Assembly (NCBI GenBank): GCA_963664705.1
Contig: OY761556.1
Coordinates: 1,376,001-1,440,000 of the forward strand
DNA: 64,000 nt
Origin: Acidobacteriota bacterium
Lineage (GTDB): Bacteria > Acidobacteriota > UBA6911
Reading direction: 5' to 3'
The translations under genes and the position numbers were made by a program. Position 1 is the first letter of the stretch, and every line of letters begins with the position of its first letter. The notes under the pieces were generated by a model. It was given only the letters and a program-made list of their open reading frames with translations, ran no database searches and had not been told where the DNA came from. Shown one piece after another: positions 261-47,004 of this stretch.

Positions 261-352
261 GATGTTGGACGTTAGGAACGTTAGACGTTGGACGTTAGGA
301 ACGTTAGACGTTGGACGTTTGAACGTTGCACGTTTGAACGTTGCACGTTGAA
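261..352 (+). repeat. ACGT-core degenerate tandem tract (ACGTTGG-type on +)
   Basis: gttggacgttaggaacgttagacgttggacg...; begins about 6 bp upstream of the four-helix-bundle ATG. Confidence 0.9.
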
Positions 353-400
353 ATGAATGTTTCTGCCGGACATAAATTATTTCACTAAAAAAGTAAAACC

Positions 401-506
401 TCCAACGTCTAACGTCCCAACGTCCAACGGTTTTATCGTCCAACGTCTAACGTCCCAACGTCCCAACGTCCAACGTCTAACGTTCCCCGTCCAACGTTCC
501 ACGTTT
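401..506 (-). repeat. ACGT-core tract (CCAACGT-type on +), inverted relative to 261-352
   Basis: tccaacgtctaacgtcccaacgtcc... Confidence 0.9.
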
Positions 507-527
507 TTATGTTATGCTGCAGACCTA

Positions 528-1517
528 ATGAAACGAACCTGGTCGCTTGTCATCAGCATCGCGCTGACCGCCGTGATCGGCTATGTGCTGTACCGCAGCG
601 TGCCCGACTGGGGGCAGGCTGTCTCGATCATGATTTCGGCGCGCCCGCAATGGTTCCTGGCCGGAATCTGCTTTGTCGGGCTCCACATGGTCATGCGCTC
701 GCTGCGCTGGAGCCTGCTGCTCCGCCCGGTCAAGAGCGGCATCCCGCTGAAGAGCTTTCTTTCGGTGACCATCATCAAATACGTCATCAACGTCATTCCG
801 CCGCGCGTCGGCGAAATTGCCGGATCGGTGCTGCTGGCGCGCAAGGAGAAGATCCCCTCCTCCTCGGCCATCGCCAGCTCTCTGTTCGAACGGGTGCTCG
901 ACGCGCTGGCCGTCCTGTCGATTTTCGGCTTTTACCTTTTCTTCTGCGCCGGATGGTATGCGCCGACTTCGAAGCGCGGGCGCGAGATTTTCGACACGAT
1001 CCGGACTTCGACGATGGTGGGGATGGCGGTGTTTGCCGTGCTGCTGATTCTTCTGCTGCTGTTCCTGCACAGCGAGCGCTGGCACAACCGTGTTCCGGGG
1101 ATCCTCCGGAAGCACGTCCTCTCGTTTGCCGACGGCCTGCGCTCGATCCAGAGCTGGCCGGCCGCGATCAAAGTCGGAGCGCTTTCGATCCTGATCTGGC
1201 TGTCGATCAGCGCGCAGCTCTGGTGCTTTACGCGCGCTTATCTCGATGATTTTCCGTTCACCGGCGCGCTCTTCATCATGGCAATCACGGTCGTCGGCGT
1301 GGCGATTCCTACGCCGGGCGGCGTGGGCGGATTCCAGTTTTTCATGGCGCTCGGGCTGATCCATTTCTTCCGCGCCTTTATCCCGGGCGTTGATCCGGAA
1401 TCGCAGGCGGGCGGCGTCAGCAACGGCGTTTACCTCATGTCGATGGGGCCGGTGATTTTACTCGGCCTTGTTCTTCTGCATCGCGAAGGAATTTCTCTGT
1501 CCGAATTAAAACGTTGA
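528..1517 (+). CDS. Lysylphosphatidylglycerol-synthase TM / UPF0104 flippase-like membrane protein
   Basis: Multi-TM protein with RSLRW, N.IPPRVGE, ERVLD and PTPGGVG motifs; start moved to MKRTW because the upstream extension is translated repeat. Confidence 0.85.
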   Translation: MKRTWSLVISIALTAVIGYVLYRSVPDWGQAVSIMISARPQWFLAGICFVGLHMVMRSLRWSLLLRPVKSGIPLKSFLSVTIIKYVINVIPPRVGEIAGSVLLARKEKIPSSSAIASSLFERVLDALAVLSIFGFYLFFCAGWYAPTSKRGREIFDTIRTSTMVGMAVFAVLLILLLLFLHSERWHNRVPGILRKHVLSFADGLRSIQSWPAAIKVGALSILIWLSISAQLWCFTRAYLDDFPFTGALFIMAITVVGVAIPTPGGVGGFQFFMALGLIHFFRAFIPGVDPESQAGGVSNGVYLMSMGPVILLGLVLLHREGISLSELKR

Positions 1518-1660
1518 ACGTTGGACGTTGGGACGTTGGACGTTGGGACGTTGAAACGTTGCACGTTACACGTTGAACGTTATAACGTTCCCTCGTCCAA
1601 CGTCTCAACGTCTAACGTCCAACGTTCCAACGTTCCAACGTTCCAACGTCCCAACGTTGA
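1508..1660. repeat. ACGT-core tract, G-rich half then C-rich half (imperfect hairpin)
   Basis: aaacgttgaacgttggacg... switches near 1580-1590 to ...tccaacgtctcaacg; includes the TGA of the upstream gene. Confidence 0.9.
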
Positions 1661-1764
1661 TCGTTCCGCGTTTCACGATTGCTATTACTAAATACCAATT
1701 TTATGTTTGGAACAGGTGGTTATCCTCCACCCGGAAGAATGCTATATTTTATGACAGGGTAGGG

Positions 1765-2424
1765 ATGGATATGGGAAATTACCAGTTGATTCTGGCAGAT
1801 GATCACGCGCTTTTCAGAGAAGGGTTGAAGCTGGTCTTAAGTCAAAAGCCCGAATTCCAGATCGCCGGCGAAGCCAGCGACGGGCTCGAGCTGCTCGGCA
1901 TGCTGAAACACGGCCCGCTGCCGGACCTGGTCATCCTGGATATTTCGATGCCGCGCCTGCGGGGCATCGAAGCGATCCGGGAGATCAAGACGATCTCGGA
2001 CAAAATCCGCATCATGGTTCTTACCATGCACAAAGATGAGCGGCTTCTTTGCGAGGCGTTCGTCGCCGGGGCGGACGGATATCTTTTGAAAGAGAATGTG
2101 ACGACGGAACTTTTTACCGCTTTGACGGCAGTGCTGAGCGGCCAGGGACACATTTCGTCGCTGATGAACAATGAATTGAAAGGGGCGTGGATCAACCTCT
2201 TCCGGCAGCAGAAGGTCGTAATGCCGGATGACAATCTTTCCACGCGCGAAAAGCAGGTATTGAAAATGGTCGCCGAAGGGGCGTCCAACAAGGAAATCGC
2301 CGATCAGCTGAACATCAGCGTGCGCACGGTGGATCACCACCGGGCGAGCTTGATAGAAAAGCTCCAGTTGAAGAGCACCGCCGAGCTGATCCGTTACGCG
2401 ATTTCAAAAGCTTATATTGATTAG
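1765..2424 (+). CDS. NarL/LuxR-family response regulator
   Basis: ILADDH, VILDISMP, LTMH, GYLLK receiver motifs; C-terminal LSTRE..VLKMVAEGASNKEIA HTH. Confidence 0.92.
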   Translation: MDMGNYQLILADDHALFREGLKLVLSQKPEFQIAGEASDGLELLGMLKHGPLPDLVILDISMPRLRGIEAIREIKTISDKIRIMVLTMHKDERLLCEAFVAGADGYLLKENVTTELFTALTAVLSGQGHISSLMNNELKGAWINLFRQQKVVMPDDNLSTREKQVLKMVAEGASNKEIADQLNISVRTVDHHRASLIEKLQLKSTAELIRYAISKAYID

Positions 2425-2528
2425 GCGGCGTTGCTCGCGCAAACACGCAACCGCAGCCGTAGATTCCTGATTTCCAATTCCCAATTCGAAGAGTACGGGG
2501 CTCCACTTCGAATAGAAAGAGTGGCCGA

Positions 2529-3011
2529 ATGCCCGGACCGTATCGCATTATCCTGACCGACAATCATGCTCCCCTCAGGAGCGCGGTAAAATCGCTCCTG
2601 GAAGAGTCGGGGGAGTACCTTGTCGTCGGAGAGGCGGGGGATGGAGCCCAGCTTCTGAAGCTGCTGCAGGACGGAGTCGAAGCGGATGCGCTGGTGCTGG
2701 ATCTGATGATGCCGGTCATGACCGGCGTCGAGGCCGCCGGCGAAATCCGGCGGCTGGGGTTCCCGATCGCGATCCTGGTGCTCACGATGCACCAGGAGAC
2801 CGAACTGCTGTGCCGCGCCTTCAAAGTCGGAGTCAATGGTTATGCCCTGAAGGACGGGATTGCCAGGGATCTGCTGCCGGGGCTGCGCGCCGTGATCGAA
2901 GGGAAGCTGTTTCTGTCGCCCGAAATCAAGGGCGAGTTGCCGGCGACGTGTACCGTTAAGAAGGTGGAAGGCAGTCTAATAGCTCTAGGTTTCGCCCACT
3001 GTACGGCGTGA
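2529..3011 (+). CDS. NarL-like receiver-only response regulator (no HTH)
   Basis: LVLDLMMP, VLTMH, GYALKD; ORF ends before an HTH. Confidence 0.8.
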   Translation: MPGPYRIILTDNHAPLRSAVKSLLEESGEYLVVGEAGDGAQLLKLLQDGVEADALVLDLMMPVMTGVEAAGEIRRLGFPIAILVLTMHQETELLCRAFKVGVNGYALKDGIARDLLPGLRAVIEGKLFLSPEIKGELPATCTVKKVEGSLIALGFAHCTA

Positions 3012-3012
3012 A

Positions 3013-3100
3013 TGAAACGTTAGACGTTGGACGATAAAACGTTGGACGTTGAAACGTTGGAACGTTGGACGTTGAACGTTGGGACGTTGGACGTTGGAAA
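3013..3100 (+). repeat. ACGT-core tract (G-rich on +)
   Basis: aaacgttagacgttggacgataaaacgttggacg... filling the gap between convergent stop codons. Confidence 0.9.
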
Positions 3101-3107
3101 GAGCGTA

Positions 3108-3356
3108 TCACGCCACTTCGGTTTTGGGCGCGCTCTTTATCAGAATACTGGGCTGATGATTCTGGTCCGGAACGGGCAAATTCATTTCCCTTAATGTATC
3201 CACGAATTCCTGCATATCGGACTTTGCCGTGCGAAGGCACTCTTCCAATGATCGGCCCGCACCCGTAAAACCGCCAAGGTCCGGCGAGTAAAAAGAGAAA
3301 AACTCAGGATCGCCGGTGGCCTCGATTACCAGAGAATACGGCAATTCGATTATCAT
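3108..3356 (-). CDS. hicB: HicB-family antitoxin (short form)
   Basis: YSLVIE..., PDLGGFTGAGRSLEECL, LPVP motifs; overlaps hicA stop. Confidence 0.8.
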   Translation of the reverse strand: MIIELPYSLVIEATGDPEFFSFYSPDLGGFTGAGRSLEECLRTAKSDMQEFVDTLREMNLPVPDQNHQPSILIKSAPKTEVA

Positions 3357-3550
3357 CTTCCCCCTCCACTCAATCCGGCTGCCCTTAAGATAGAATAGCA
3401 AGTCCCTGCCGGTACTTCCTTCGTGCCGTGGAAATCCACGCGGATCAGTTTCATATGGCCGGTTTTCCCATAGAAACGGATTGAACCACGTTCCTTAACC
3501 AGGTGGAATCCATTTCGTTCCAACAGCCGAACAAGCTCACTGAACTTCAT
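3353..3550 (-). CDS. hicA: HicA-family toxin
   Basis: MKFSELVRLLERNGF...RGSI...HGTKEVPAGTCYSILRAAGL; 65 aa, directly upstream of hicB. Confidence 0.8.
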   Translation of the reverse strand: MKFSELVRLLERNGFHLVKERGSIRFYGKTGHMKLIRVDFHGTKEVPAGTCYSILRAAGLSGGGR

Positions 3551-3644
3551 TATATCAACCCGTTCTAATGACGCAAAAGAACAAACGGAAGATCGCTGTT
3601 GTGAATGTTTCGGCGGCGGATTTTTCATTTCAGCAAATTTTCTT

Positions 3645-3749
3645 TGGACGTTGAACCGTTGGACGCTGGGACGTTGAACGTTGGACCTTGGACGTTGGAC
3701 GATGAACGTTGGACGTTGGACGATAAAACGTTGGACGTTGAGACGTTGA
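3645..3749 (+). repeat. ACGT-core tract (G-rich on +)
   Basis: ttggacgttgaaccgttggacgctgggacgttg... Confidence 0.9.
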
Positions 3750-3808
3750 TTTAGAATTAACCAACAATCTATAAAATGCCGATATAAAGATTTCTACAGG
3801 AGATATTT

Positions 3809-4225
3809 ATGTCGGAAACCGTAGCCTTTCTGAAAGCCTTGACTCCGGAGTCAAAGACCAGCCTGGGTGCGCCCCAGGTTCAGATTCATCGCTATCCCTA
3901 TCGCGTTGGCCGAGAAAGCCGCGAAGCGGGAGCTGCTGCGTTCCCGAATTCCCGCAGGCGCCAGGATTCCAGCCCCAACAACGAGCTTTACCTGCTGGAT
4001 GATGGCAAGATGCTGAATATCTCCCGGGAGCATTTCCAGATCGAACAGCGCCACGGAAACTTCTACATCGTGGACCGCAACAGCATGTGCGGAACGATTG
4101 TCGAAGGAGAGATTATCGGGCAGGGCCGGAATGGCGGCGCCAGGCAGCTCAACAATGGCGACGTCATAATCGTCGGCACCTCCGAATCCAAACAAGTCCT
4201 CAAATTCGTCACTTTGACGCCGTAA
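3809..4225 (+). CDS. Stand-alone FHA-domain protein
   Basis: RVGR, ISREHF, D.NS.CGT, LNNGDVIIVG; AGGAG RBS. Confidence 0.88.
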   Translation: MSETVAFLKALTPESKTSLGAPQVQIHRYPYRVGRESREAGAAAFPNSRRRQDSSPNNELYLLDDGKMLNISREHFQIEQRHGNFYIVDRNSMCGTIVEGEIIGQGRNGGARQLNNGDVIIVGTSESKQVLKFVTLTP

Positions 4226-4304
4226 CGTCCAACGTCCAAACGTCCAACGTTTCAACGTTCAACGTTCAACGTTCAACGTTCCAACGTTCAACGTTCCAAC
4301 GTCC
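4223..4304 (-). repeat. ACGT-core tract (C-rich on +)
   Basis: taacgtccaacgtccaaacg...; starts in the FHA stop codon. Confidence 0.9.
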
Positions 4305-5129: not shown

Positions 5130-6314
5130 GTGAAACCTATTGCTCTGGCGCTGGCTCTCATCCTGACCGTCCTCTCCGCTGTCATTGTCCTCACCGAAAC
5201 CTGTTATCGCGACGATCTCCGGGTGCAGCGGCGCCTGGCCCGCTATTCCGCTGTCGCCGACCAGCGCGTCCACGACGCGGCCGAGGCGCTGCGCGACAAG
5301 GGAACGCCCGCTGCGCTGAAGGAAGCGGTCGAGCTGTACCGCGACGTCCTTTCGAGAGACCGTGAAAATCCCTATCGCTGGTGCGACCTGGGACGCGCCC
5401 TGCAGGACTCGCAAAACACCGTGGAAGCCCGCCGCTGCTTTGAAGAGGCGGTCCGCCTCGGTCCGAACAACATCCAGACGCTGTCGCACGTCGTGGAATT
5501 CTACCTGGCGGTGCATCAGCCGAAGGAAGTCTTCCGCTATGCCGCGCGGATGCTCGACAAGGATCCCGGGAGCCGCGAAACCATCTTCTACCAGTACCTC
5601 CAGAAGGATCTCGATTTCGGGGACACCCTCCGATACGGCATTCCGGCAAACCAGCCGGTGGCGCAGGCATACATGCGCGCCCTCATTCGCAACGGCGATT
5701 CGGAGAAGGCGGGATTGGGATGGACCTGGCTGGCCTCCAAGGGCTACGCGGATGGAGCCATCGCCGGCGAATACGCCTCTTTCCTGATCCGGATCGGCGA
5801 TCCGGCCGGTGCGCGCAATGCCTGGATGGCTTGGGCCGGGACGCGCGGGCAGCCCAACCGGCTCTACAACCCCGGCTTCGAAGCGGAGCCGCTCCGCTCC
5901 CCCTTCGACTGGCAGCTGTCGCAGACCCGGGGCGTCGAAACCACACGGGATGAGTCGGTGCATCGGGAAGGGAAGTGGTCGCTTCGGGTGGAGTTTGACG
6001 GGAAGGAAAACGTGGCCTACGGCCACGCGAGTCAGTCGGTGTATCTGGAGGCGGGGAAGTATGTGCTGCGCGGATGGGTCCGGACGGAAGGGATTACGAC
6101 GGACAAAGGGATCGGACTGCGCGCCAACGGCTTTATGACCCGGCAGCTCACCGGAACCAATGACTGGACGCTGCTGGAGCAGGAGTTCGAGATGAAGGAG
6201 CCATCGCTGGTGCGGATCGAAGTGTTTCGACGGTCTTCGGAGCGCTTTGCCAACAAAATCGCCGGCATCGCCTGGATCGACGATCTATCCATTACGTTGA
6301 ACGTGGAACGTTGA
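5130..6314 (+). CDS. TPR protein with C-terminal carbohydrate-binding (CBM4/9-like) domain
   Basis: N-terminal TM, TPR-like PYRWCDLGRAL..ARRCFEEAVRLGP, NPGFE and WIDDLSI beta-sandwich motifs. Confidence 0.7.
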   Translation: MKPIALALALILTVLSAVIVLTETCYRDDLRVQRRLARYSAVADQRVHDAAEALRDKGTPAALKEAVELYRDVLSRDRENPYRWCDLGRALQDSQNTVEARRCFEEAVRLGPNNIQTLSHVVEFYLAVHQPKEVFRYAARMLDKDPGSRETIFYQYLQKDLDFGDTLRYGIPANQPVAQAYMRALIRNGDSEKAGLGWTWLASKGYADGAIAGEYASFLIRIGDPAGARNAWMAWAGTRGQPNRLYNPGFEAEPLRSPFDWQLSQTRGVETTRDESVHREGKWSLRVEFDGKENVAYGHASQSVYLEAGKYVLRGWVRTEGITTDKGIGLRANGFMTRQLTGTNDWTLLEQEFEMKEPSLVRIEVFRRSSERFANKIAGIAWIDDLSITLNVER

Positions 6315-6350
6315 ACGTTGGAACGTTGAAACGTTTAACGTTCCACGTTC
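6293..6350. repeat. ACGT-core tract spanning two convergent stop codons
   Basis: Both flanking proteins end in NVER* encoded by the repeat. Confidence 0.9.
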
Positions 6351-7252: not shown

Positions 7253-7263
7253 CCCTCAACATC

Positions 7264-7315
7264 CCCCGTCCCACATCCCAACGTCCAACGTCCCAACGTC
7301 CAACGTCCAACGTTC
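7264..7315 (-). repeat. ACGT-core tract between gmd and fcl
   Basis: cccaacgtccaacgtcccaacgtccaacg. Confidence 0.85.
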
Positions 7316-8389: not shown

Positions 8390-10117
8390 AATGCTGCCTG
8401 CTATTTGCCCGAGGAGGCTGGGAGCGCGATGCATCTCAGCCCCACGTTATTTGCCCAAGGAATCTGGAAGCGCAATGCATCTCAGCCCCATGTTATTTGC
8501 CCAAGAAATCTGGAAGCGCGATGCATCCAGCCCCATGTTATTTGCCCAAGAAATCTGGAAGCGCAATGCATCTCCGCCCCATGCTATTTGCCCAAGAAAT
8601 CTGGGAGCGCGATGCATCCAGCCCCAGCGGGGCGGTCAGAACGTAGCCGGGGGTGAAGCGAAGCGAACCCCCGGATTGGATTAGGTTGGCAACAAGCCCT
8701 GAAAGGGGCGGCAGAATGCCGATGTTTCGCCCTTGCCGGGGCTCTTTCTCGTGCACATCGCTACCGGGGGTTCGCTTCGCTTCACCCCCGGCTACGATCT
8801 TTCGGCCCTCCGGGCCTTTGCTTCACCCTCGTCGCAGGGCTTAGAACCAATGGTAGGTCACATTGGCCGGAAGCCCAATGCCGCATGTTATTTGCCCAAG
8901 GAGGCTGGAAGCGCGATGCATCTCCGCCCCATGCTATTTGCCCAAGAAATCTGGGAGCGCGATGCATCCAGCCCCAGCGGGGCGGTCAGAACGTAGCCGG
9001 GGGTGAAGCGAAGCGAACCCCCGGATTGGATTAGGTTGGCAACAAGCCCTGAAAGGGGCGGCAGAATGCCGATGTTTCGCCCCTGCCGGGGCTCTTTCTC
9101 GTGCACATCGCTACCGGGGGTTCGCTTCGCTTCACCCCCGGCTACGTTCTTTCGGCCCTCCGGGCCTTTGCTTCACCCTCGTCGCAGGGCTTAGAACCAA
9201 TGGTAGGTCACATTGGCCGGAAGCCCAATGCCGCATGTTATTTGCCCAAGGAATCTGGAAGCGTGATGCATCTCAGCCCCACGTTATTTGCCCAAGGAGG
9301 CTGGAAGCGCAATGCATCTCCGCCCCATGCTATTTGCCCAAGAAATCTGGGAGCGCGATGCATCCAGCCCCAGCGGGGCGGTCAGAACGTAGCCGGGGGT
9401 GAAGCGAAGCGAACCCCCGGATTGGATTAGGTTGGCAACAAGCCCTGAAAGGGGCGGCAGAATGCCGATGTTTCGCCCTTGCCGGGGCTCTTTCTCGTGC
9501 ACATCGCTACCGGGGGTTCGCTTCGCTTCACCCCCGGCTACGATCTTTCGGCCCTCCGGGCCTTTGCTTCACCCTCGTCGCAGGGCTTAGAACCAATGGT
9601 AGGTCACATTGGCCGGAAGCCCAATGCCGCATGTTATTTGCCCAAGGAATCTGGAAGCGTGATGCATCTCAGCCCCACGTTATTTGCCCAAGGAGGCTGG
9701 AAGCGCAATGCATCCAGCCCCAGCGGGGCGGTCAGAAAGTAGCCGGGGGTGAAGCGAAGCGAACCCCCGGATTGGATTAGGTTGGCAACAAGCCCTGAAA
9801 GGGGCGGCAGAATGCCGATGTTTCGCCCTTGCCGGGGCTCTTTCTCGTGCACATCTCTACCGGGGGTTCGCTTCGCTTCACCCCCGGCTACGATCTTTCG
9901 GCCCTCCGGGCCTTTGCTTCACCCTCGTCGCAGGGCTTAGAACCAATGGTAGGTCACATTGGCCGGAAGCCCAATGCCGCATGTTATTTGCCCAAGGAAT
10001 CTGGAAGCGTGATGCATCTCAGCCCCAGCGGGGCGGTCAGAACGTAGCCGGGGGTGAAGCGAAGCGAACCCCCGGTAGAGACAAGTGGGAGCAAGAGCCC
10101 TGGCAGGGGCGAAAGAT
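8390..10117. repeat. Tandem array of REPIN-like units, each preceded by a variable number of 45-46 bp subrepeats
   Basis: GTAGCCGGGGGTGAAGCGAAGCGAACCCCCGG at 8643, 8993, 9389, 9739 and 10044 (spacings 350, 396, 350, 305); inverted copies about 120 bp downstream in the first four units. Confidence 0.92.
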
Positions 10118-10573: not shown

Positions 10574-11788
10574 TTAAAATTTGTTAGACGTTGGACGTTG
10601 GGACGTTGGACGTTCCGCGTTCCACGTTCCGGCAATCCAACCGAGTACCATCGCATTGGCCGGGATATACAAATTAAAATCGACGAAACTATGCAACAGG
10701 ATGGCGGCCAGCGCCCCGATGCATGCGATATGCCCGGCCCGTATCGCCTGCCGGAATGCACTTCCGATCAAAACCGCCACAAGCAAAAATCCAATGATCC
10801 CCAATTCAATCATCGCCTGCACATAATCGTTATGTGCGTAATCCACGGTGTGTCCGGGAAGGATGTCCTTGATCTTGTAAAAGGCTGATTCAAAGCCTCC
10901 GAGGCCGCAGCCGAACGCGGCATATTTTTTGATCAGGGGCGGGGCCTGCTGCAGAAACAGCAGCCGTCCTCCCAGCGTGGACACCTGTTCTTCCGATGCT
11001 TCGGAGAATCGTTTGAAGAACGGATCGGGCGGCAGGTAAAGAAAAAGAAACAGCGCGCCCGCAAGGATCGGCACCGGCGCCACCCACTTAATCCAACGTT
11101 GAACGTTCAACGTTCCACGTTTAACGTTCAACGACAGTATTCCCATCAAACACAGCACACAGAGGGTCGTCAGGAACCCGCCGCGCGAGTAGGAGCAGAC
11201 AATTCCAGCAAAAATAATGCCGGCCGGAATCCAAAGCCACTTGTCGCGAAACGCGCCGACGACGGCGAACGGGAGAGACATTTCGAGCAGCCCGGCGAAG
11301 TGGTTGCGGTTGACGTAGGTGCCGTGCGCGCCGGTTTCCGCGTTCATGGCCATGATGCCGAGAGCCGCTTCGATGGCTGCGACGATGATGATCGGGAGTG
11401 CCGCCCAGCGGCTTTTCATCCCGCGGATCGTGAAGTAGACGGCAATATAGGCCAGGATGCGCAGCAGATGCTCGAACGTCGCTGCCGGCTTAATGCTGGT
11501 GACGAAAAACTGGGCGAGCGCGTAGCAGGGAAGGAGAAGCATAAACGTTGGACGTTTCAACGTTGGACGTTGGACGTTGGGACGTTGGGACGATGGGACG
11601 TGGGACGTTGGACGTTGGGACGTTGGACGTTGGAACGTTGGAACGTTGAACATCCAGTAGGTTGCGCAAACGATGCCGAATCCCAGCAGACACCAGTGCC
11701 ACTGCGCCGTCTGCACCCCTCCGTCGCAATACACGGCGTACGCCAGCACCACTCCTAACCCAGCAAGCGTCAGCGTGTGTCCGCGCAT
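10574..11788 (-). CDS. O-antigen ligase / Wzy_C family protein carrying in-frame ACGT-repeat insertions
   Basis: GTYVNRNHFAGLLEM, SYSRGG, G.GLGGF, AHNDYVQ, HSFVDFNL. Confidence 0.88.
   Translation of the reverse strand: MRGHTLTLAGLGVVLAYAVYCDGGVQTAQWHWCLLGFGIVCATYWMFNVPTFQRPTSQRPTSHVPSSQRPNVQRPTLKRPTFMLLLPCYALAQFFVTSIKPAATFEHLLRILAYIAVYFTIRGMKSRWAALPIIIVAAIEAALGIMAMNAETGAHGTYVNRNHFAGLLEMSLPFAVVGAFRDKWLWIPAGIIFAGIVCSYSRGGFLTTLCVLCLMGILSLNVKRGTLNVQRWIKWVAPVPILAGALFLFLYLPPDPFFKRFSEASEEQVSTLGGRLLFLQQAPPLIKKYAAFGCGLGGFESAFYKIKDILPGHTVDYAHNDYVQAMIELGIIGFLLVAVLIGSAFRQAIRAGHIACIGALAAILLHSFVDFNLYIPANAMVLGWIAGTWNAERPTSQRPTSNKF
11543..11650. repeat. Intragenic ACGT-core tract (further tracts at 11092-11133 and 10582-10630)
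   Basis: Encodes NVPTFQRPTSQRPTSHVPSSQRPNVQRPTLKRPTF in the ligase frame. Confidence 0.9.
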
Positions 11789-13497: not shown

Positions 13498-13607
13498 TAA
13501 TTCCGTTGCACGTCGGACGGCGAACGTTGGACGTTGGACGTTGGCCGTTGCCCGTTTTATTATCTTTTTAATCGAAATAATCTCGGTCCCGATGAAACAT
13601 TCAGATC

Positions 13608-14129
13608 ATGAGGAATTCGAACATTCTTGCCGTGCCGACTGATTCAATCGAGCGTCGCATTTACCTGATCCGTGGCATGAAAGTTATCATTGACTCGGAT
13701 TTAGCGGAATTGTATCAAGTGCTTACAAAAAACCTCAATCTTGCCGTCCGAAGAAACCTGGATCGCTTTCCGGAAGATTTTATGTTTCGCCTCACGAAAG
13801 ATGAGGCTGTTTGTTTGAGGTTGCAATCTGCAACCTCAAACACATCCCGCGGAGGCCGCCGATATCTTCCCTATGCCTTCACAGAGCACGGTGTAGCGAT
13901 GCTATCTGCAGTTCTTAAAAGTGAGCGCGCTGTGCAGATGAGCATCTTCATCATTCGTGCTTTTGTCAAAATCAGAGAGGTTCTTGCTACCCACCATGAT
14001 TTGGCGAAGAAAATAGATGAACTGGAGCGTGAGCAGAAGGACCAGGGACGTCAACTTGCGGCAGTGTACTCCGTTGTAAAAAGGCTGATCGATACGCCGT
14101 CAACCCGCAAAAACCCCATCGGTTTTTAA
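13608..14129 (+). CDS. ORF6N-domain DNA-binding protein
   Basis: IRGMKVIIDSDLAELY, VRRNLDRFPEDFMF, PYAFTEHGVAMLS, C-terminal PIGF. Confidence 0.92.
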   Translation: MRNSNILAVPTDSIERRIYLIRGMKVIIDSDLAELYQVLTKNLNLAVRRNLDRFPEDFMFRLTKDEAVCLRLQSATSNTSRGGRRYLPYAFTEHGVAMLSAVLKSERAVQMSIFIIRAFVKIREVLATHHDLAKKIDELEREQKDQGRQLAAVYSVVKRLIDTPSTRKNPIGF

Positions 14130-14134: not shown

Positions 14135-14236
14135 TCAACGTCCCACGTCCCACGTCCAACGTGCTTTTCAACGTCCAACGTCTCAACGTCCAACGGGTTT
14201 TCCAACGTCCAACGTGCTTTTCAACGTCCAACGTTC
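14135..14236 (-). repeat. ACGT-core tract between convergent ORF6N and phosphatase genes
   Basis: caacgtcccacgtcccacgtccaacg... Confidence 0.9.
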
Positions 14237-14790: not shown

Positions 14791-14822
14791 CGTTCAACGT
14801 CCACGTCCAACGTTCAACGTTC
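14791..14822 (-). repeat. Short ACGT-core tract, the last before the repeat-free central block
   Basis: cgttcaacgtccacgtccaacgttcaacgtt. Confidence 0.8.
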
Positions 14823-39142: not shown

Positions 39143-39214
39143 AAACGTTGGACGAAAAAACGTTGGACGTTGGGACGTTGGACGTTGGACGGGGAAACGT
39201 TAGACGTTGGACGA
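39143..39214 (+). repeat. ACGT-core tract (G-rich on +)
   Basis: aaacgttggacgaaaaaacgttggacgttgggacg. Confidence 0.9.
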
Positions 39215-39278
39215 TGGGGACGGGTATAGCACCTGGGTGCTATTGCCAAATTTCTATTTTGAATGTGTAATCCTGCTT

Positions 39279-39914
39279 ATGCTCACGCGCATTCTCATCG
39301 CCGACAGCCAGGATATGCTCCGCGAACTCCTGAAACGCCTGCTCGAATCGCAGCCGGACTTCTTCGTGGTCGCCGATACGGGCGACGGCGAGGCGCTCGA
39401 ACACCTCGTCGCCGAGCATTCCCCCGATGTGCTCGTCTGCGATCTGAATCTGCGCCGGCGCTCCGGCATCGATGTCCTGCAGGAAATTGCAGCGCAATTC
39501 CCGAAAGTCAAACCGATCGTCCTGACCGATACCATCGACGATGGCAGAATATTCCAGGTGCTGCTGCGCGGCGCCCGCGGGCTCGTCATGAAAGACGCCC
39601 CCGCCGCCACACTATATAAAAGCATTCGCACCGTCATGGCCGGGCAGTACTGGATCAGCCGCGATGGCGTCTCCGGCCTCATTGAATATATGCGCGCCTT
39701 CGCCGCATCCATCGAACAGGGAAAGACCCACCATACCCACCATCTGACGCCCAGGCAGCGGCAGATCGTCAAGTCCATCGCCGCCGGCTGCTCGAATAAG
39801 GAAATCGCCGACGAACTCGAAATTACCGAAAGAGCCGTCAAATATCACCTTACACGGCTGTATCAGATTTTCGGAGTCTCCGGGAGAATGGAACTTGCGC
39901 GCGTAACGTTATAA
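39279..39914 (+). CDS. NarL/LuxR-family response regulator
   Basis: PDVLVCDL, GARGLVMK, LTPRQ...GCSNKEIA HTH. Confidence 0.88.
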   Translation: MLTRILIADSQDMLRELLKRLLESQPDFFVVADTGDGEALEHLVAEHSPDVLVCDLNLRRRSGIDVLQEIAAQFPKVKPIVLTDTIDDGRIFQVLLRGARGLVMKDAPAATLYKSIRTVMAGQYWISRDGVSGLIEYMRAFAASIEQGKTHHTHHLTPRQRQIVKSIAAGCSNKEIADELEITERAVKYHLTRLYQIFGVSGRMELARVTL

Positions 39915-39980
39915 CGTTGGACGTTAGACGTTGGACGAAAAAACGTTGGACGTTGCGACGTTGGGACGTTGGACGATTGG
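39904..39980 (+). repeat. ACGT-core tract containing the regulator stop codon
   Basis: taacgttataacgttggacgttagacg... Confidence 0.9.
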
Positions 39981-40047
39981 GCCCGGTTTCACCTGCGTTG
40001 CCGGATTCGTGATAATTTGTGGAATTCGTGGCAATTAACCGTCCGTG

Positions 40048-40263
40048 TTAACGTTTTTCCCAGATCATGGACAGGCGCTTCTTTGTAACCGCGCAATCAC
40101 GAAGATACAGGTTGATCAGCGTCTGGTATGGGATTCCACATTCCTGGGAAAGCTGCTTGAAGTATTCGAGCGTCATGTCGTCCAGCCGGATCGTTACCTG
40201 GCGCTTGAGCCGGGCTGCATATGGATTCGGATGCCCCTTCGAAAAATCATATTCTCGTTTCAT
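40048..40263 (-). CDS. brnA: BrnA-family antitoxin
   Basis: MKREYDFSKG, VTIRLD...YFK, GIPYQTLINLYL. Confidence 0.88.
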   Translation of the reverse strand: MKREYDFSKGHPNPYAARLKRQVTIRLDDMTLEYFKQLSQECGIPYQTLINLYLRDCAVTKKRLSMIWEKR

Positions 40264-40556
40264 TGAATGTGCCTTCGACCATAGTCGTCCCGTTCCTTTC
40301 GGGTTGCCTTCCGTGCGGAGATGATCCTGATTGCGGAGTCAGCGCTCCGATAACAATGAGATACAACCAACAGGCGCAAATTACAGCTCAAGCCCAGAAG
40401 CAAGAAACGTTTCTCTCCATTAAAGTGACCGGGATCATCAATGAGCAGACCGAATTCATCCATAAAGATGGTTGTTGCTTCGTTGAAAGAAATGCCATGC
40501 TTGAGTTCATTTGACTGTGCCTTGTCGGGATCCCATTCAAATACTAGTTCATTCAT
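40260..40556 (-). CDS. brnT: BrnT-family ribonuclease toxin
   Basis: FEWDPDK..SN..KHGISF.EA, E.R..LLG, IRIISARKAT. Confidence 0.92.
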   Translation of the reverse strand: MNELVFEWDPDKAQSNELKHGISFNEATTIFMDEFGLLIDDPGHFNGEKRFLLLGLSCNLRLLVVSHCYRSADSAIRIISARKATRKERDDYGRRHIQ

Positions 40557-40690: not shown

Positions 40691-40760
40691 TCCAACGCCC
40701 AACGTCTAACGTCCAACGTTTCCACGTCCAACGTTTTTTCGTTCAACGTTTCAACGTGCC
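40691..40760 (-). repeat. ACGT-core tract (C-rich on +)
   Basis: tccaacgcccaacgtctaacgtccaacg... Confidence 0.88.
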
Positions 40761-41161: not shown

Positions 41162-42928
41162 ATGAGTCTGGGTAGGGGGTGTCCTATGCCGCGGGAGATC
41201 CTGGCCAGAGGCTTCTTTTATTGGCTGCGCGCTCCGAGAGATTATTCTGATTTCAGCCGCGAACAGTGGATCATGGCGATAGCACGCCTGTTCATGAGCC
41301 TCTGCTTCCTGGCCAATTCCGCGCACTCCCATGGCCTCTCTTCCACGCTCCCGACCACGCTGCTGTGCCTGTACTCGATCTACAGCGTCCTGATCACCTT
41401 CGCGCTGCGCTTCCGCATCCAGTCCAGCCCGGCTTTCCACATTGGCCTACATTGCGCCGACGTGCTCTGGGCCGCGCAGCTCGCGCTCGTCATCGAGTGG
41501 CCGGGCGTTTCCCTGGTCCTTTTGTTCTTCCTCCTGATCAGCTCCAAGATGCGCTGGGGCTTCTGGGAGGCGCTGCTGACCGGCGGCGGCTTCAGCTTCC
41601 TCTGGCTCGCGGGCAGCCTGATCTACAGCCCGGTCCTGGGCTGGCGGCATGCCTCTCCGCTCGATGCCTTGCTCGAGTTCGCCATCCACATGACGATGTC
41701 GCTCGTGATCGGGCGCCTGGCCGAGCCCAAGCTCATGCACATGGAAAAGAGCCGCCTGACCACCATCCTCGAAGGGATCGATTCCAGCCGCGGCCTGACC
41801 CCGGCGATGCAGACGATCTGCAGCGCGGCCATGAGCCTGTTCCGGGCCACCCAGATTCTCATCGCCATCCACGACCGGCACACCGACCGTACGCTGCTGT
41901 TCCGCGCCGGCAACACCTCCGAGAACGTCCAGTGCGAGGTCCTCACCCCCGAGCAATACTCGCATTACTTCTTCACTCCGCCCGCGACGGGCTGGCGCAT
42001 GAGGGCTGTTCGCCGCGCACGGACTCCCGAGTTCCGCTGCCTGACGCTGCAGGACGACCGTCTGCGCACCTGCCGGGGCGATTGCGGCATGCCGGAGACT
42101 TTCCTGGCCGAGCACCCGCTGCACCTGGTCCTGAGCGTCGATCTGCCGGTTGAGAACGAGATTTGCATCCGCCCGTTCGTGATCGATCCGCACCCGTGGT
42201 TCGGCGGCGCCGCGGCGCTGCGCTTCCTGTGGCGCGGGGCGCTCCAGGTTGCGCCCGTGATCCGCAGCCTGTTCCTCCTCGATCGCATTAAAAGCAAAGC
42301 GGAAGCCGAAGTCCACCACCGGCTGGCGCGCGAACTGCACGACGGTGCCATCCAGTCGCTCACCAGCATCAGCCTGCAGCTCGATCAGCTCTGGCGCTGC
42401 GCCGGGCCCGCCCTCACCGCCGAGGCGCTGCGGCTCGCATCCATCCAGAAAAATATCCGCGACGAGATCGCCTCCCTGCGCGAATTCGCCACCGAACTCC
42501 GCTCGCTCGACATCGATGCCGCCCGCCTCATCCCGCACCTGTCACAGCTGGCCGTCAAATTCCAGTTCGACAGCGATATCGCCGCCCGGTTCGCCTGCGA
42601 TGTCGAGGAAGTGCGGCTGCGGCCCAGCGTCTGCGTCGAAATCGCCCGGATCGCCCAGGAAGCCCTTGCCAATGTGCGGAAACACAGCGGCGCCGGGGAA
42701 GTCCTGATCCGCTTCAACCGGCGCAACGGCAATTACCTGCTCGCCATCACCGACAATGGCTGCGGATTCAAATTCAGCGGACGACGCTCCCACGAAGACC
42801 TGCGCGCCGCCGGGGAAGGGCCCGTCGTCATTTTGGAACGTGCCAAAGAAATACAAGCCCGGGTGGAAATTGAATCTATTCCGGGAAGCGGATCGAGTTT
42901 GGAAGTCAGTGTTCCCGTGGAACGTTGA
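41162..42928 (+). CDS. Membrane sensor histidine kinase (HisKA_3 / NarX type)
   Basis: N-terminal TMs, RLARELHDGAIQ, QEALANVRKHS, DNGCGF, S.PGSG. Confidence 0.92.
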   Translation: MSLGRGCPMPREILARGFFYWLRAPRDYSDFSREQWIMAIARLFMSLCFLANSAHSHGLSSTLPTTLLCLYSIYSVLITFALRFRIQSSPAFHIGLHCADVLWAAQLALVIEWPGVSLVLLFFLLISSKMRWGFWEALLTGGGFSFLWLAGSLIYSPVLGWRHASPLDALLEFAIHMTMSLVIGRLAEPKLMHMEKSRLTTILEGIDSSRGLTPAMQTICSAAMSLFRATQILIAIHDRHTDRTLLFRAGNTSENVQCEVLTPEQYSHYFFTPPATGWRMRAVRRARTPEFRCLTLQDDRLRTCRGDCGMPETFLAEHPLHLVLSVDLPVENEICIRPFVIDPHPWFGGAAALRFLWRGALQVAPVIRSLFLLDRIKSKAEAEVHHRLARELHDGAIQSLTSISLQLDQLWRCAGPALTAEALRLASIQKNIRDEIASLREFATELRSLDIDAARLIPHLSQLAVKFQFDSDIAARFACDVEEVRLRPSVCVEIARIAQEALANVRKHSGAGEVLIRFNRRNGNYLLAITDNGCGFKFSGRRSHEDLRAAGEGPVVILERAKEIQARVEIESIPGSGSSLEVSVPVER

Positions 42929-42969
42929 ACGTTGAACGTTGGGACGTTGAACGTTGGGACGTTGGAACG
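42916..42969 (+). repeat. ACGT-core tract containing the kinase stop codon
   Basis: cgtggaacgttgaacgttgaacgttgggacg. Confidence 0.9.
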
Positions 42970-43023: not shown

Positions 43024-43686
43024 ATGGATTCCGTACGAATTATCATTGCCGATGACCACACCATCCTGCGCGACGGCCTCAAAATGCTGATCGCGGATTA
43101 CCGGGAATTCGAGGTCGTGGGCGAAGCCTCGACGGGGACGCAGGCGCTCGAGGTTGTCGATCGGCTGGATCCGGACGTTCTGCTGCTCGATCTCGTCATG
43201 CCGGAGCTGGGGGGCATGAAGGTGCTGGAGGAGATGCTGGCGCGGAAGCACCGGACGCGGGTCATCATGCTGAGCGGTGCGATTGAAGGGGATGACATCA
43301 CGAAGGCGTTTGAGCTGGGTGCGCGCGGCCTGGTGAAAAAAGATGTCGCCGGGTCCATCCTGATCGACTGCATGCGCGCCGTGCTGGCAGGGAAGTACTG
43401 GATCGGGAGACAGAGCGCCGAGAATCTCGAGGAAGTCCTGCAGCGCTGCCGAAGCACCGCCAAGAGAGCCCGGCCGGAAAACTACCGTCTTACCCCGAGA
43501 GAGATGCAGATCATTAAGGCCGTCGTCTCCGCCTCCACGAACAAGGAGATCGCGCGGCAGCTATCGATCAGTGAAGAAACCGTCAAGCATCATATCACCA
43601 GCATCTTCGATAAACTCGGCGTCTACAATCGTCTTGAACTGACCCTTTTCGTCTTCCACCACGGCATCGTTGATAAAGCACGTTGA
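43024..43686 (+). CDS. NarL/LuxR-family response regulator
   Basis: IADDH, LLLDLVMP, LTPRE, TNKEIA. Confidence 0.93.
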   Translation: MDSVRIIIADDHTILRDGLKMLIADYREFEVVGEASTGTQALEVVDRLDPDVLLLDLVMPELGGMKVLEEMLARKHRTRVIMLSGAIEGDDITKAFELGARGLVKKDVAGSILIDCMRAVLAGKYWIGRQSAENLEEVLQRCRSTAKRARPENYRLTPREMQIIKAVVSASTNKEIARQLSISEETVKHHITSIFDKLGVYNRLELTLFVFHHGIVDKAR

Positions 43687-43785
43687 ACGTTGGGACGTTG
43701 AACGTTTGAACGTTTGAACGTTGGAACGTTGGGACGTTGGACGTTTGGACGTTGAACGTTGAAACGTTGAAACGTTGGAACGTGG
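43679..43785 (+). repeat. ACGT-core tract containing the regulator stop codon
   Basis: cacgttgaacgttgggacgttgaacg... Confidence 0.9.
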
Positions 43786-43794
43786 GAGCGGGAT

Positions 43795-43826
43795 AAAAAT
43801 TAAAAGGGCCCCAAGGATGGGGCCCT
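43795..43826 (-). terminator. Intrinsic terminator, U-tract on minus strand
   Basis: Stem AGGGCCCCA/TGGGGCCCT, 4 nt loop, preceded on + by an A-rich run. Confidence 0.65.
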
Positions 43827-44146: not shown

Positions 44147-44299
44147 TTAGGCTTGTGGAATTAGTGCTTTGGTAAGGGTTTCACGGTCCGTGTCGTTGAA
44201 GTACTTCAGGCCGCACACGATACACAACACTATGGATGTCCCTTTTTCGTTGGGGCTGACGTAAACCGGGCGCCCACAATCTTTGCACTCGATTTCCAT
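44147..44299 (-). CDS. 50 aa zinc-ribbon protein
   Basis: MEIECKDCGR...LCIVCG; GC-rich hairpin just downstream (about 44106-44145). Confidence 0.55.
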   Translation of the reverse strand: MEIECKDCGRPVYVSPNEKGTSIVLCIVCGLKYFNDTDRETLTKALIPQA

Positions 44300-44496
44300 C
44301 GTGATTTGAGTCAGTGAGGGGGCAAAAGCGCCAAGCAGAATAGATTCAGACTCGCTAAAATAATCAATCAACATCAAATGCACTCCAAAACAAATTACGG
44401 GTGTAATGGTACCGACAAAACGCCATAAATTCCACGAATTCCACAAATAATCGGTTACCCGAAATGGCGCCAATTTATACACCGTGTCACCGAAGA

Positions 44497-44532
44497 CACG
44501 TTGAACGTTCAACGTTTCAACGTTCAACGTTT
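44497..44532. repeat. ACGT-core tract
   Basis: cacgttgaacgttcaacgtttcaacgttcaacgttt. Confidence 0.85.
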
Positions 44533-44564
44533 CGGCGTATAATCGGCCGAAAAAGGAGCAGCCC

Positions 44565-45125: not shown

Positions 45126-45127
45126 AA

Positions 45128-45278
45128 GAACGTTGGACGTTGGGACGTTGCACGTTGGACAAGCGGCCACGAATTCCACGAATTATCACGAATCCGGAAG
45201 CGCAAATGAAACCGGGCCTTGTCGTCCAACGTCCCAACGTCCCAACGTCTAACGTCCAACGTTTCTTCGTCCAACGAT
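45128..45278. repeat. Inverted pair of ACGT tracts (45128-45160 G-rich, 45222-45278 C-rich) enclosing a CACGAATT repeat
   Basis: Lies between convergent stop codons. Confidence 0.88.
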
Positions 45279-45279
45279 T

Positions 45280-46188
45280 TCAGCGCGCACGACGAGCGAT
45301 GATGTGATAGTCGCCGCCGGGGATCGTCACTTCGATGTGCCTCTCGGCGTTACCGTCTTTCAGTGGCGTGCGGTACACGATGGAATAGTGGCTCGAGAGG
45401 AGATGTGTGATGGTGCGGCACAGCCCGCTGACATCCCCGTCCTGGCCCGAGGCGCTGATTTCTTCCGGGCCCAGCATCAATTGGTCCGATCCGGACTGTT
45501 CCTGGATCAGGGTCAACCTGCTTTTCGACTCCTCGGAAAATCCTGCAGCGATCAGTATTACGCCGGATTCCCTCAAGTGTTCGATTGAGGATTGCCTCAG
45601 CTCTTCCGGGTGATCGCGAATGAGCAGCAGCGCCTTTCGCTGGTTGTCCCCTTTTTTCGCCGCCTTCAGTCCGAGGTCGATCCCCAGTCCCACCTGTGGC
45701 GGAGTGATGAAGCTGCGCCCGATCCGGCGCGGCCGCCGGCTGTGCGAGAGGACGCCGATGTTTTCCAGCGCTGTGATGATCTCCAGGCGGTCCCGGGTGA
45801 AACGCTGCTCGAGGTAGGCGTCGCGCTGATCATAGGAGTAGAGCGCGATTTCATCCGTCGGCTTGAGAAGATGGATGAGCTGCGAAATCATGTTCTTCGC
45901 GATCGAGAGGCTGGATTGCGGCATGAAGCCGGTCCCCAGCGAGATGACCAGGCTCACCGGGACGTCCGAGAGTTGTTTGAAGTTGGCGATTTCCACGGGT
46001 GTCCCGTTTTCCCTGATCTCGAAGGCATCGCCGGCGAGGCCGGGGACCGCTCGTCCTTGCCGATCGAGCACTTCCACATCCAGGAAGACGAGGTGGACTT
46101 CCACCTTGAAGGGAGGGTTCTTCTTTTGGGCAAAGGCGGCCAACACGAACAAAAGGGTGCTGGCGAAAATGATCAGGGTGCGTCGCAT
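45280..46188 (-). CDS. Secreted VWA-domain protein (acidobacterial VWFA-related type), degenerate MIDAS
   Basis: Signal peptide, FKVEVHLVFLDVEV.D..GR.VPGL...F.I.ENG, HYSIVY. Confidence 0.75.
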   Translation of the reverse strand: MRRTLIIFASTLLFVLAAFAQKKNPPFKVEVHLVFLDVEVLDRQGRAVPGLAGDAFEIRENGTPVEIANFKQLSDVPVSLVISLGTGFMPQSSLSIAKNMISQLIHLLKPTDEIALYSYDQRDAYLEQRFTRDRLEIITALENIGVLSHSRRPRRIGRSFITPPQVGLGIDLGLKAAKKGDNQRKALLLIRDHPEELRQSSIEHLRESGVILIAAGFSEESKSRLTLIQEQSGSDQLMLGPEEISASGQDGDVSGLCRTITHLLSSHYSIVYRTPLKDGNAERHIEVTIPGGDYHIIARRAR

Positions 46189-46269
46189 GGATTCCCTCTT
46201 ACCCGATATAACGATAGAGTACTGCAAAACGTGGCGTTTTTTTGACTTTTGTAATAATCTCGATGGGCG

Positions 46270-46950
46270 ATGAAAAACAGACGCAATTACTACCGGATCC
46301 TGCAGGTGCAGCCGGACGCGCCGACGGAGATCATTCACGCGAGCTATCGCGCGATGATGCGTGATCTGAAGCAGCACCCCGACCTGGGCGGGTCGACGTA
46401 CGAGGCCGCTCTCATTAATGAAGCGTTCGAGACGCTTGGCAACCCGGAAAAGCGCGCGGCCTACGACCAGGAGCTGTTCCTGAAGTTTACGAAGCAGGTG
46501 CATTCGCGGACGATGTCGCCGATTGCGCCGGTGCTCTGTCCGGTCTGTCGTCGGCCGCTGTCGCGGACGCCGGAGCCCGGGGAGATCTGCTCAACCTGCC
46601 GGACGCCGCTGCAATCGGACGAAGCGCCGCTCTCCGCGCCGTCCAACAAGCGCTCGATGGATCGCATCAGGAGTTCCGAGCCGGTGGAGTATTACCCGAG
46701 CTGGCCGGGGAAGGCGCACAAAGGAAAGCTGATTGATTTTTCTCCGAAGGGGCTGCGATTTCTGTGCAGCGAGCGGCTGGCGCCGCAGACTGTGCTGAAG
46801 ATCAGCAGCCGGCTTTTCGAAGCCTCAGGCACGGTGACGAATGTGAGCGAAGAAGCGGCGGGCGTGAAACCGTCTTATGCCATCGGCATTTGTTTCCTGG
46901 CCGTGAACTTCAGCGACACCCGCGGCACCTTCCTTTCTACCTCGGCGTAA
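46270..46950 (+). CDS. J-domain protein with CxxC pair and C-terminal PilZ-like domain
   Basis: NYYRILQV, HPD, INEAFETL; CPVC...CSTC; RSMDR and DFSPKG. Confidence 0.85.
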   Translation: MKNRRNYYRILQVQPDAPTEIIHASYRAMMRDLKQHPDLGGSTYEAALINEAFETLGNPEKRAAYDQELFLKFTKQVHSRTMSPIAPVLCPVCRRPLSRTPEPGEICSTCRTPLQSDEAPLSAPSNKRSMDRIRSSEPVEYYPSWPGKAHKGKLIDFSPKGLRFLCSERLAPQTVLKISSRLFEASGTVTNVSEEAAGVKPSYAIGICFLAVNFSDTRGTFLSTSA

Positions 46951-46953
46951 AGA

Positions 46954-47004
46954 CCGTTGAACGTTAAAACGTTAAACGTTGAAACGTTCCAACGTTCAAC
47001 GTTT
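46954..47004. repeat. Last ACGT-core tract in the window, between convergent stop codons
   Basis: cgttgaacgttaaaacgttaaacgttgaaacgttccaacgttcaacgtt. Confidence 0.88.

What the first reader, a model, noticed from the sequence alone, without database searches (positions are those of the whole stretch)
261..47004. Polarised ACGT-core microsatellite tracts bracket genes: candidate undescribed repeat system
Seen: about 23 tracts of degenerate 6-8 nt units (ACGTTGG / CCAACGT, invariant ACGT core) at gene boundaries. Read on the coding strand, the G-rich form lies at or just after the stop of about 13 genes (528, 2529, 5130, fcl, gmd, phosphatase, 39279, kinase, 43024, DUF3795, VWA, J-domain, protease). 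Between convergent genes the tract often switches polarity (6293-6350, 45128-45278, 46954-47004). The C-rich form tends to precede starts. Exceptions: FHA, ORF6N and hicB have C-rich tracts downstream, and some starts follow G-rich tracts. Inference: orientation is tied to transcription, so 5' and 3' tracts could pair and loop out a gene in RNA or ssDNA, or act as protein-loading sites. Analogous to cyanobacterial heptamer STRR repeats, but with a different motif.
Basis: partly seen in the sequence, partly recalled or inferred. Interest (0 to 1): 0.85.

Follow-up and report, generated by a model that had tools for sequence, protein, structure and literature searches.

The report
Repeat arms clustered around helix-bundle gene
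The short ACGT repeats are real and match the paired, mirror-image arms found around a small "four-helix-bundle" gene; most copies lie at stop codons within about 100 kb of the genome's one such gene, so they likely spread locally from it rather than acting as a switch that loops out each gene.

Summary
The tracts are real (23 in the window; assembled reads match them letter for letter). 'G after stop, C before start' reads the same on both strands: it is a fixed G-arm...C-arm pair inside each gap (12 against 1). The arms match those of a PF05635 four-helix-bundle gene at window -113..255; its nearest relatives carry ACGT arms in the same order, starting at upstream stops. The genome holds four more such genes with other heptamers. 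This scan found that cassette before on other DNA, and Rehm 2015 printed the same polarity for Xanthomonas heptamers. New here: 43 of 51 tracts lie within 110 kb of the gene (1.6 expected), among native genes whose orthologous junctions are empty; a similar excess appears in one unrelated lineage, not in two others. The same domain is a peak of silent-site GC around a polysaccharide locus, so repeated DNA import is a serious rival to local spread. The mechanism of spread is untested.

The parts
1..255 (-). 5' part of the four-helix-bundle gene (122 aa; runs on to window -113; a further arm, C-form on its coding strand, follows at -134..-272)
   Evidence: PF05635 105 bits, TIGR02436 100 bits, 2GSC E 1.5e-13, sequence
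260..350 (+). G-form arm, directly upstream of the four-helix-bundle start
397..504 (+). C-form arm; on the minus strand the G-form 5' arm of the cassette, predicted to pair with both 260-350 and the arm downstream of the gene
1510..1658 (+). Gene-less G-to-C pair; supplies the stop codon of gene 528-1517
3013..3099 (+). G-form arm at the stop of 2529-3011
3108..3550 (-). hicAB toxin-antitoxin pair between two G arms (GC3 0.55, looks foreign)
3644..3748 (+). G-form arm left of the FHA gene
3809..4225 (+). FHA gene inside a G...C pair (arms predicted to pair over 71 bp)
4224..4304 (+). C-form arm at the FHA stop
6293..6350 (+). G-to-C pair supplying the last codons and stops of both the TPR gene and fcl
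7267..7313 (+). C-form arm (G-form on the coding strand) 2 nt after the gmd stop; absent at this junction in 7 of 7 congeners
10583..10631 (+). G-to-C tract forming the C-terminus of the O-antigen-ligase-like gene
11094..11133 (+). In-frame tract inside the O-antigen-ligase-like gene; absent in 2 of 2 orthologues
11545..11648 (+). In-frame tract near the N-terminus of the same gene; absent in the one orthologue that covers it
13503..13556 (+). G-form arm left of ORF6N
13608..14129 (+). ORF6N gene inside a G...C pair (GC3 0.51, looks foreign)
14136..14234 (+). C-form arm between the ORF6N and phosphatase stops
14791..14822 (+). C-form arm upstream of the phosphatase
39145..39217 (+). G-form arm upstream of response regulator 39279
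39906..39981 (+). G-form arm supplying the stop of 39279-39914
40048..40532 (-). brnTA toxin-antitoxin pair inside a G...C pair (GC3 0.56)
40691..40757 (+). C-form arm
42916..42969 (+). G-form arm supplying the kinase stop
43680..43787 (+). G-form arm supplying the stop of 43024-43686
44498..44533 (+). Compact G-to-C tract between divergent genes
45128..45278 (+). G arm, spacer with another short repeat, C arm, between convergent stops
46955..47003 (+). G-to-C tract between the J-domain and protease stops

Best explanation
The tracts match the two mirror-image arms of a four-helix-bundle (PF05635) gene cassette, and most are likely gene-less or one-armed copies that spread from the single cassette at window -113..504 into nearby stop-codon junctions. 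Shown: a fixed G-arm-then-C-arm order; anchoring at stop codons; the same arms, order and stop anchoring around related genes in other phyla; gain or loss at orthologous junctions; density falling with distance from the gene. Inferred: arms are copied by short-range recombination or gene conversion into the 3' ends of genes, where the G-form brings its own stop codon and so does little harm; slippage then changes unit number; small foreign genes (ORF6N, brnTA, FHA) land between existing arms; as RNA the arms would form an intervening-sequence-like stem or a 3' hairpin. Whether the four-helix-bundle protein takes part in the copying is untested. I put the link to the cassette at about 0.85 and local spread as the cause of the clustering at about 0.65.
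For: PF05635 gene in the densest part of the cluster (53, 11, 6.7 and 0.12 sites per 100 kb at 0-15, 15-50, 50-110 and over 110 kb; junctions filled 14 of 22, 8 of 25, 10 of 69, 0 of 177, 8 of 3989). The other four PF05635 genes of the genome each have inverted arms of another heptamer, and four of those families show the same excess of the 5' arm after stops (24:8, 14:4, 8:1, 11:4). ACGT arms cluster on the protein tree (11 of 75 relatives; 7 changes against 11.5 shuffled, 0 of 500 as low; the window's protein falls in a supported group of 12 rows, 9 with ACGT arms). In 71 related loci the upstream gene is co-oriented in 53, and the 5' arm starts within -10..+19 nt of its stop in 29 of 44 scorable. 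Both-arm gaps run G to C in 12, C to G in 1 weak case. gmd-fcl junction filled only in this genome of 8; 16 of 49 tract sites of G043/G006 have a syntenic junction here (12 distinct), all without a tract. Local excess near the cognate gene in G046 (6 of 25 sites, 0.63 expected) and G049 (9 of 76, 1.9 expected), among housekeeping genes and with no GC rise. Segments inside G...C are shorter (664 against 1829 nt) and lower in GC3 (0.64 against 0.75, p 0.022; 6 against 10 segments; post hoc).
Against: Silent-site GC forms a smooth peak over the same domain (0.85-0.92 at the centre, genome median 0.66; 0.07-0.12 above orthologues in G014 and G024), and 2 of 7 outlying sites lie in 98th-percentile GC patches: spread from one gene does not explain that. 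The edge is rather sharp (10 of 69, then 0 of 177), the left side is thin, and the trend inside the domain is weak (rho -0.23, p 0.035). No local excess for the four other families here, G051 (1 of 23) or G017; G047 is weak (2 of 17, p 0.07); G048 (17 of 37) is confounded by duplicated arrays; G046 and G049 are kin, and tracts clump elsewhere too, so Poisson p values overstate. G043 and G006 have hundreds of ACGT matches but no ACGT-armed PF05635 gene was found. The cassette here has an extra C-form tract before its start. A crude 5-mer test scored related arms inverted in only 30 of 52 (19 direct; near-palindromic units blur it). No target-site duplication could be read, and no mobilising enzyme is identified.
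Confidence: 0.58

Rival explanations
1. Import zone. The tracts are still cassette arms, but they cluster because the polysaccharide locus is a recombination hot region: repeated long imports from a GC-richer relative that carries such tracts everywhere (or GC-biased conversion in a hot region) brought tracts, cassette and high silent-site GC together.
For: GC4 peak coincides with the domain and is centred on the exopolysaccharide genes; domain genes exceed orthologues in tract-free congeners by 0.07-0.12 (p 0.004 for G014); in G043 GC4 also rises towards the same gene module (0.68 to 0.89) with tracts and no cognate gene found; hot regions over 100 kb around rfb are reported for E. coli (PMC4866539, passages).
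Against: No close donor among 29 congeners (70-80% DNA identity; the G-rich 13-mer has 138 matches here, 0-4 in 40 relatives); gene order with G014 runs across the right edge; the plainly foreign glycosyltransferase core has no tracts; an imported block would rarely hold a donor's single cassette; G046/G049 show the excess without glycan genes or GC rise; tract density and GC4 do not correlate across 25 selected G043 loci (rho 0.14).
Confidence: 0.27
2. One reading: the tracts are a host device tied to transcription; 5' and 3' tracts pair to loop out single genes, or load a protein.
For: Strong stop anchoring; C405 and G1511 can pair over 64 bp; the G-form folds on itself more stably than the C-form as RNA in 41 of 41 arms (expected from G-U pairs), so a 3' hairpin effect is plausible; in Xanthomonas, transcripts start or stop more often in such repeats (PMC4692102, section 15).
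Against: The bracket pattern is strand-symmetric; no start-side bias (14:13); orthologous genes work without tracts in congeners; tract-bearing genes share no function and differ between congeners; confinement to 2.5% of the chromosome; tracts overwrite C-termini and insert in frame.
Confidence: 0.08
3. Ordinary slippage microsatellites that arose in place, unrelated to the four-helix-bundle gene, and were filtered by selection to gene ends.
For: Very long homogeneous tracts (57 units at window 87060 and 92253) show slippage; polymerase slippage is the usual explanation for heptamers and stop-bearing orientation filters position (PMC4692102, PMC4679880).
Against: One motif at over 40 sites in one region, fixed G-to-C order, coupling of motif to the protein tree, and identical anatomy of four other families are not expected from independent origins.
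Confidence: 0.07

Closest known systems
Heptamer repeats of Xanthomonas (GGGAATC) and Nostoc (GGGGA(C/T)T), Rehm et al. 2015, PMC4692102 (seen: passages, sections 15 and 16)
   Same: [quoted passage not shown]
   Different: Those are dispersed with no regional preference, can form G-quadruplexes, and were not linked to a gene (no hit for 'xcc0516' or 'helix bundle' in the text). Here the core is the palindrome ACGT, units mix 7 and 8 nt, and 84% of tracts lie within 110 kb of a PF05635 gene.
ORF-bearing 23S rRNA intervening sequences with S23p (Coxiella, Leptospira), PMC4990558 (seen: passages)
   Same: Same protein family; complementary ends that form a stem; tandem heptamers before the start codon.
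   Different: Not in an rRNA gene; arms are long degenerate arrays; gene-less copies outnumber the gene about 40 to 1; RNase III cutting untested.
TAACTGA repeats of Beggiatoaceae, cyanobacteria and Bacteroidetes, MacGregor 2015, PMC4679880 (seen: passages, section 12)
   Same: Oriented intergenic heptamer arrays, stop-bearing orientation limited to gene ends, in-frame inserts in the other orientation, empty junctions in relatives, suspected mobility.
   Different: Mostly just upstream of starts; no link to a four-helix-bundle gene in the text searched; no regional clustering reported.
Heptamer-armed four-helix-bundle cassette noted earlier in this scan (e1-859224, e1-763116, e1-2950676 and others; AI notes)
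   Same: Same gene family, inverted arms, gene-less remnants, insertion at stops.
   Different: ACGT-core arm type; closed genome showing a distance gradient over about 170 kb with a matching GC peak; other small genes between arms.
REP/REPIN elements with Y1 (RAYT) transposases (seen: search listing only; details recalled)
   Same: Non-autonomous inverted pairs in intergenic gaps with one cognate gene flanked by the same repeat.
   Different: No fixed-length palindrome; the cognate gene is not a transposase; the genome's one Y1 transposase has other flanks.
Cyanobacterial STRR heptamers (recalled; no primary paper seen, one search did not list one)
   Same: Tandem heptamer arrays between genes.
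   Different: Different motif and phylum; recalled, not tested.

Membership tests
Heptamer-armed PF05635 cassette family | PF05635/TIGR02436 gene present | tested here: met
   105 and 100 bits over cut-off
Heptamer-armed PF05635 cassette family | Inverted 7-9-nt arrays on both sides of the gene | tested here: met
   G-form 405-504 upstream and C-form downstream on the coding strand, predicted to pair across the gene; an extra C tract lies between
Heptamer-armed PF05635 cassette family | Arm motif shared with nearest protein relatives | tested here: met
   9 of 12 rows of its supported group have ACGT arms; 7 changes against 11.5, 0 of 500 shuffles; kin inflate this
23S rRNA intervening sequence | Located inside an rRNA gene | tested here: not met
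   Flanked by protein genes; Rfam finds no rRNA in the window
23S rRNA intervening sequence | Excised from RNA by RNase III | not testable with these tools
   No RNA holder listed
REP/REPIN-RAYT | Fixed short palindrome repeated at conserved length | tested here: not met
   Mosaics of over 20 linker variants, 3-57 units
REP/REPIN-RAYT | Y1 transposase flanked by the same repeat | tested here: not met
   Single Y1 gene at window 63893-64276 has palindromes like those at 8400-10110, no ACGT arrays
MITE | Target-site duplication and precise ends | tested here: inconclusive
   Orthologous junctions too diverged
Diversity-generating retroelement (Avd) | Reverse transcriptase beside the Avd-like gene | tested here: not met
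   Only RVT_1 match is at 5.756 Mb, far from the gene at 1.376 Mb
Diversity-generating retroelement (Avd) | Template and variable repeat pair | not tested
   Not searched
Xanthomonas/Nostoc-type polarised heptamer repeats | G-rich form close after stops on the coding strand; inverted pairs | tested here: met
   32:14 and 12:1
Xanthomonas/Nostoc-type polarised heptamer repeats | Dispersed over the chromosome; runs of 3-4 G | tested here: not met
   47 of 55 in one 250-kb bin; commonest linkers have 2-3 G

The most novel reading that the evidence does not exclude
A transposase-free selfish element: the four-helix-bundle (Avd-like) protein acts mainly near its own gene to seed copies of its repeat arms at stop codons over about 100 kb; the arms then serve as landing pads for small foreign genes and raise local recombination, leaving a GC peak. 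Young families would be local, old ones dispersed. This would explain the long-unexplained bacterial heptamer repeats and give PF05635 a function.
Probability: 0.25. Interest if true: 0.82.

Novelty: new variant of a known kind. Interest (0 to 1): 0.5.

Why it matters
Heptamer tracts are common in bacteria and unexplained (PMC4692102, PMC4679880). A closed genome in which one family is confined to about 170 kb around its cognate gene, while four sister families are dispersed, is a natural experiment on how they spread: it turns 'where do heptamer repeats come from' into a distance test that can be run on any closed genome. It also warns annotators: these tracts rewrite C-termini, supply stop codons and insert in frame in membrane proteins.

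Tried and rejected
Gene-looping as the organising rule: rejected on symmetry and counts. Assembly artefact: rejected. Joints seen lie inside tracts with 25-41 letters on the short side; I read them as repeat mis-mapping, not inversion or excision. No RNA holder listed. RAYT or reverse transcriptase as partner: no link found. Isolation by distance of unit make-up: Mantel rho -0.06, p 0.78; neighbours slightly more alike, p 0.012; rare linkers p 0.17 (34 sites): weak. Target-site duplications: unreadable at 70-80% identity. Metagenome scan with a 23-nt G-form pattern gave 5 short contigs; no PF05635 relative was found in them by blastp with the window's protein. G050 could not be scored (rows for the gene's contig not listed) and G052 gave 3 hits only. 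The control windows were picked after I had seen the hit list, so I rely on the whole-genome counts. Gene calls are from my own codon model, hand-corrected in the window only; 3 of 78 loci were dropped from the tree (too short or with a stop) and 7 from the neighbour test (short flanks). Print searches that found no paper linking PF05635 genes to flanking heptamer arrays as a rule or reporting regional confinement: (open-access library only; supplements not read, and those of PMC4692102 list repeat-adjacent genes that may include Xcc0516).


Full report
Observation. The window holds 23 tracts of at least three ACGT cores spaced 6-10 nt; the genome (one contig, 6.89 Mb) holds 56, and a Markov simulation of equal length gave one. 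Linkers are a small set and their reverse complements. Short-read contigs reproduce the tracts exactly, in part also in a second sample. The organism is likely an acidobacterium (inference from TIGR03436, PEP-CTERM and Rfam Acido-Lenti-1 hits).

The polarity rule. With my gene calls, 53 tracts fall in 43 intergenic gaps, and two lie in frame in the O-antigen-ligase-like gene. What it describes is a fixed order inside gaps: G arm left, C arm right in 12 gaps, the reverse in one weak case, including three gaps between divergent genes. The direction-sensitive test (single arms between co-directional genes) gives 10 G to 4 C, p 0.18. Stop anchoring is real: nearer the stop in 15 of 18 co-directional gaps, and 12 genes end inside a tract (one search lists 13; one is a chance core).

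The cognate gene. A PF05635 four-helix-bundle gene starts at window 255 on the minus strand and runs just off the window. It is one of five; the other four have inverted arms of other heptamers, whose gene-less copies show the same excess after stops. Among 78 related loci, ACGT arms occur in Chloroflexota, Acidobacteriota, Bacteroidota and others, G-form upstream and C-form downstream, and cluster on the protein tree around the window's protein (short alignment, kin inflate the signal). In these loci the upstream gene is mostly co-oriented (53 of 71) and the 5' arm starts at its stop (29 of 44). So the stop-anchored G arm copies the 5' junction of the full cassette. Folded as RNA, the long G arm at 405-504 is predicted to pair partly with the extra C tract and partly with the arm beyond the gene, the layout of an intervening sequence (PMC4990558).

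Gain and loss. The gmd-fcl junction carries the tract only here among 8 congeners, and one congener has a different repeat at the same two stops; the fcl stop has a tract here and in G006 but not in G043. G043 and G006 carry a related, less G-rich ACGT type at core-gene junctions; 16 of 49 such sites have a syntenic junction in this genome and none has a tract. G014 and G042 have none. The in-frame tracts are insertions relative to orthologues.

Confinement. 43 of 51 tracts lie within 110 kb of the gene (1.6 expected), unlike the four other families. Filled junctions fall from 14 of 22 to 8 of 25, 10 of 69, 0 of 177 and 8 of 3989 with distance. The domain includes native genes (folD, a relA homologue), while the foreign glycosyltransferase core is free of tracts. 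Elsewhere: excess near the cognate gene in G046 (6 of 25) and its kin G049 (9 of 76), among housekeeping genes without GC rise; weak in G047; confounded by duplication in G048; absent in G051 and G017.

Against my reading. Silent-site GC peaks smoothly over the same domain, centred on the polysaccharide genes, and exceeds orthologues in tract-free congeners. Two of seven outlying sites also lie in GC-rich patches. G043 shows a like rise towards the same gene module with tracts but no ACGT-armed gene found. Long hot regions around glycan loci are known in E. coli (PMC4866539). Repeated import, or a hot region that favours both tracts and GC, is therefore a serious rival; no donor was found among 29 congeners.

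Mechanism. Most likely the arms are copied over short range by recombination or conversion into gene ends, where the G form supplies a stop; slippage sets length; small foreign genes settle between arms. Anatomy, coupling, gain/loss and gradient are shown; copying, any role of the protein and RNA processing are inferred. No transposase or reverse transcriptase is linked.

Known and new. The polarity is in print for Xanthomonas and Nostoc heptamers (PMC4692102), oriented heptamer arrays for Beggiatoaceae (PMC4679880), the Avd relation in PMC10053308 (passages). The cassette was noted repeatedly by this scan on other DNA; my reading was written before that look-up. I found no paper on the cassette as a rule or on regional confinement, and no scan note on it. 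Verdict: new variant of a known kind; interest 0.5.

Noticed in passing
G000:C1:1260000-1530000 (window about -116000..154000): Silent-site GC rises smoothly from 0.66 to 0.85-0.92 at the polysaccharide locus, the strongest such peak in the genome; a second block lies at 6.52-6.57 Mb.
   Followed up: partly
window 8399-10110 and 48990-49480: Arrays of about 350-396-nt units made of 46-nt repeats and palindromes; four Rfam Acido-Lenti-1 hits. Likely REP-type.
   Followed up: partly
window 63893-64276 (L005:1893-2276): The genome's only Y1 transposase match, flanked by palindromes like those above; likely their RAYT.
   Followed up: partly
window 14850-39140: Glycosyltransferase core with foreign codon use and no tracts, including a radical SAM/PqqD/nucleotidyltransferase module and a flippase fused to a CheR-like methyltransferase (32627-34999).
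   Followed up: no
window 40005-40036, 44423-44448, 45167-45193: A second, 9-10-nt short repeat sits beside or between ACGT arms; the genome has three PF13366 (GxxExxY) genes; a link is recalled, not tested.
   Followed up: no
L006:4993-5496 and L002:92-573: Compound arrays in which arms of different heptamer families are fused or alternate, one directly after a tRNA-like end.
   Followed up: no
L006:12516-13610: IS110 transposase with at least nine further 98-99% copies in the genome.
   Followed up: no
L236 (G017) against L232 (G043): A related four-helix-bundle cassette whose arm differs from the ACGT unit by one base lies in a gene neighbourhood where G043 has gene-less ACGT tracts; suggests motif drift.
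   Followed up: partly
L258 and L260 (G048): Long 37-nt-period arrays containing heptamer arms among tandem paralogues of about 690 aa without Pfam match, near a Baseplate J gene.
   Followed up: no
window 49120-49305 and 49658-49732: Three near-identical 64-nt repeats and a tRNA gene followed by an AT-richer stretch.
   Followed up: no
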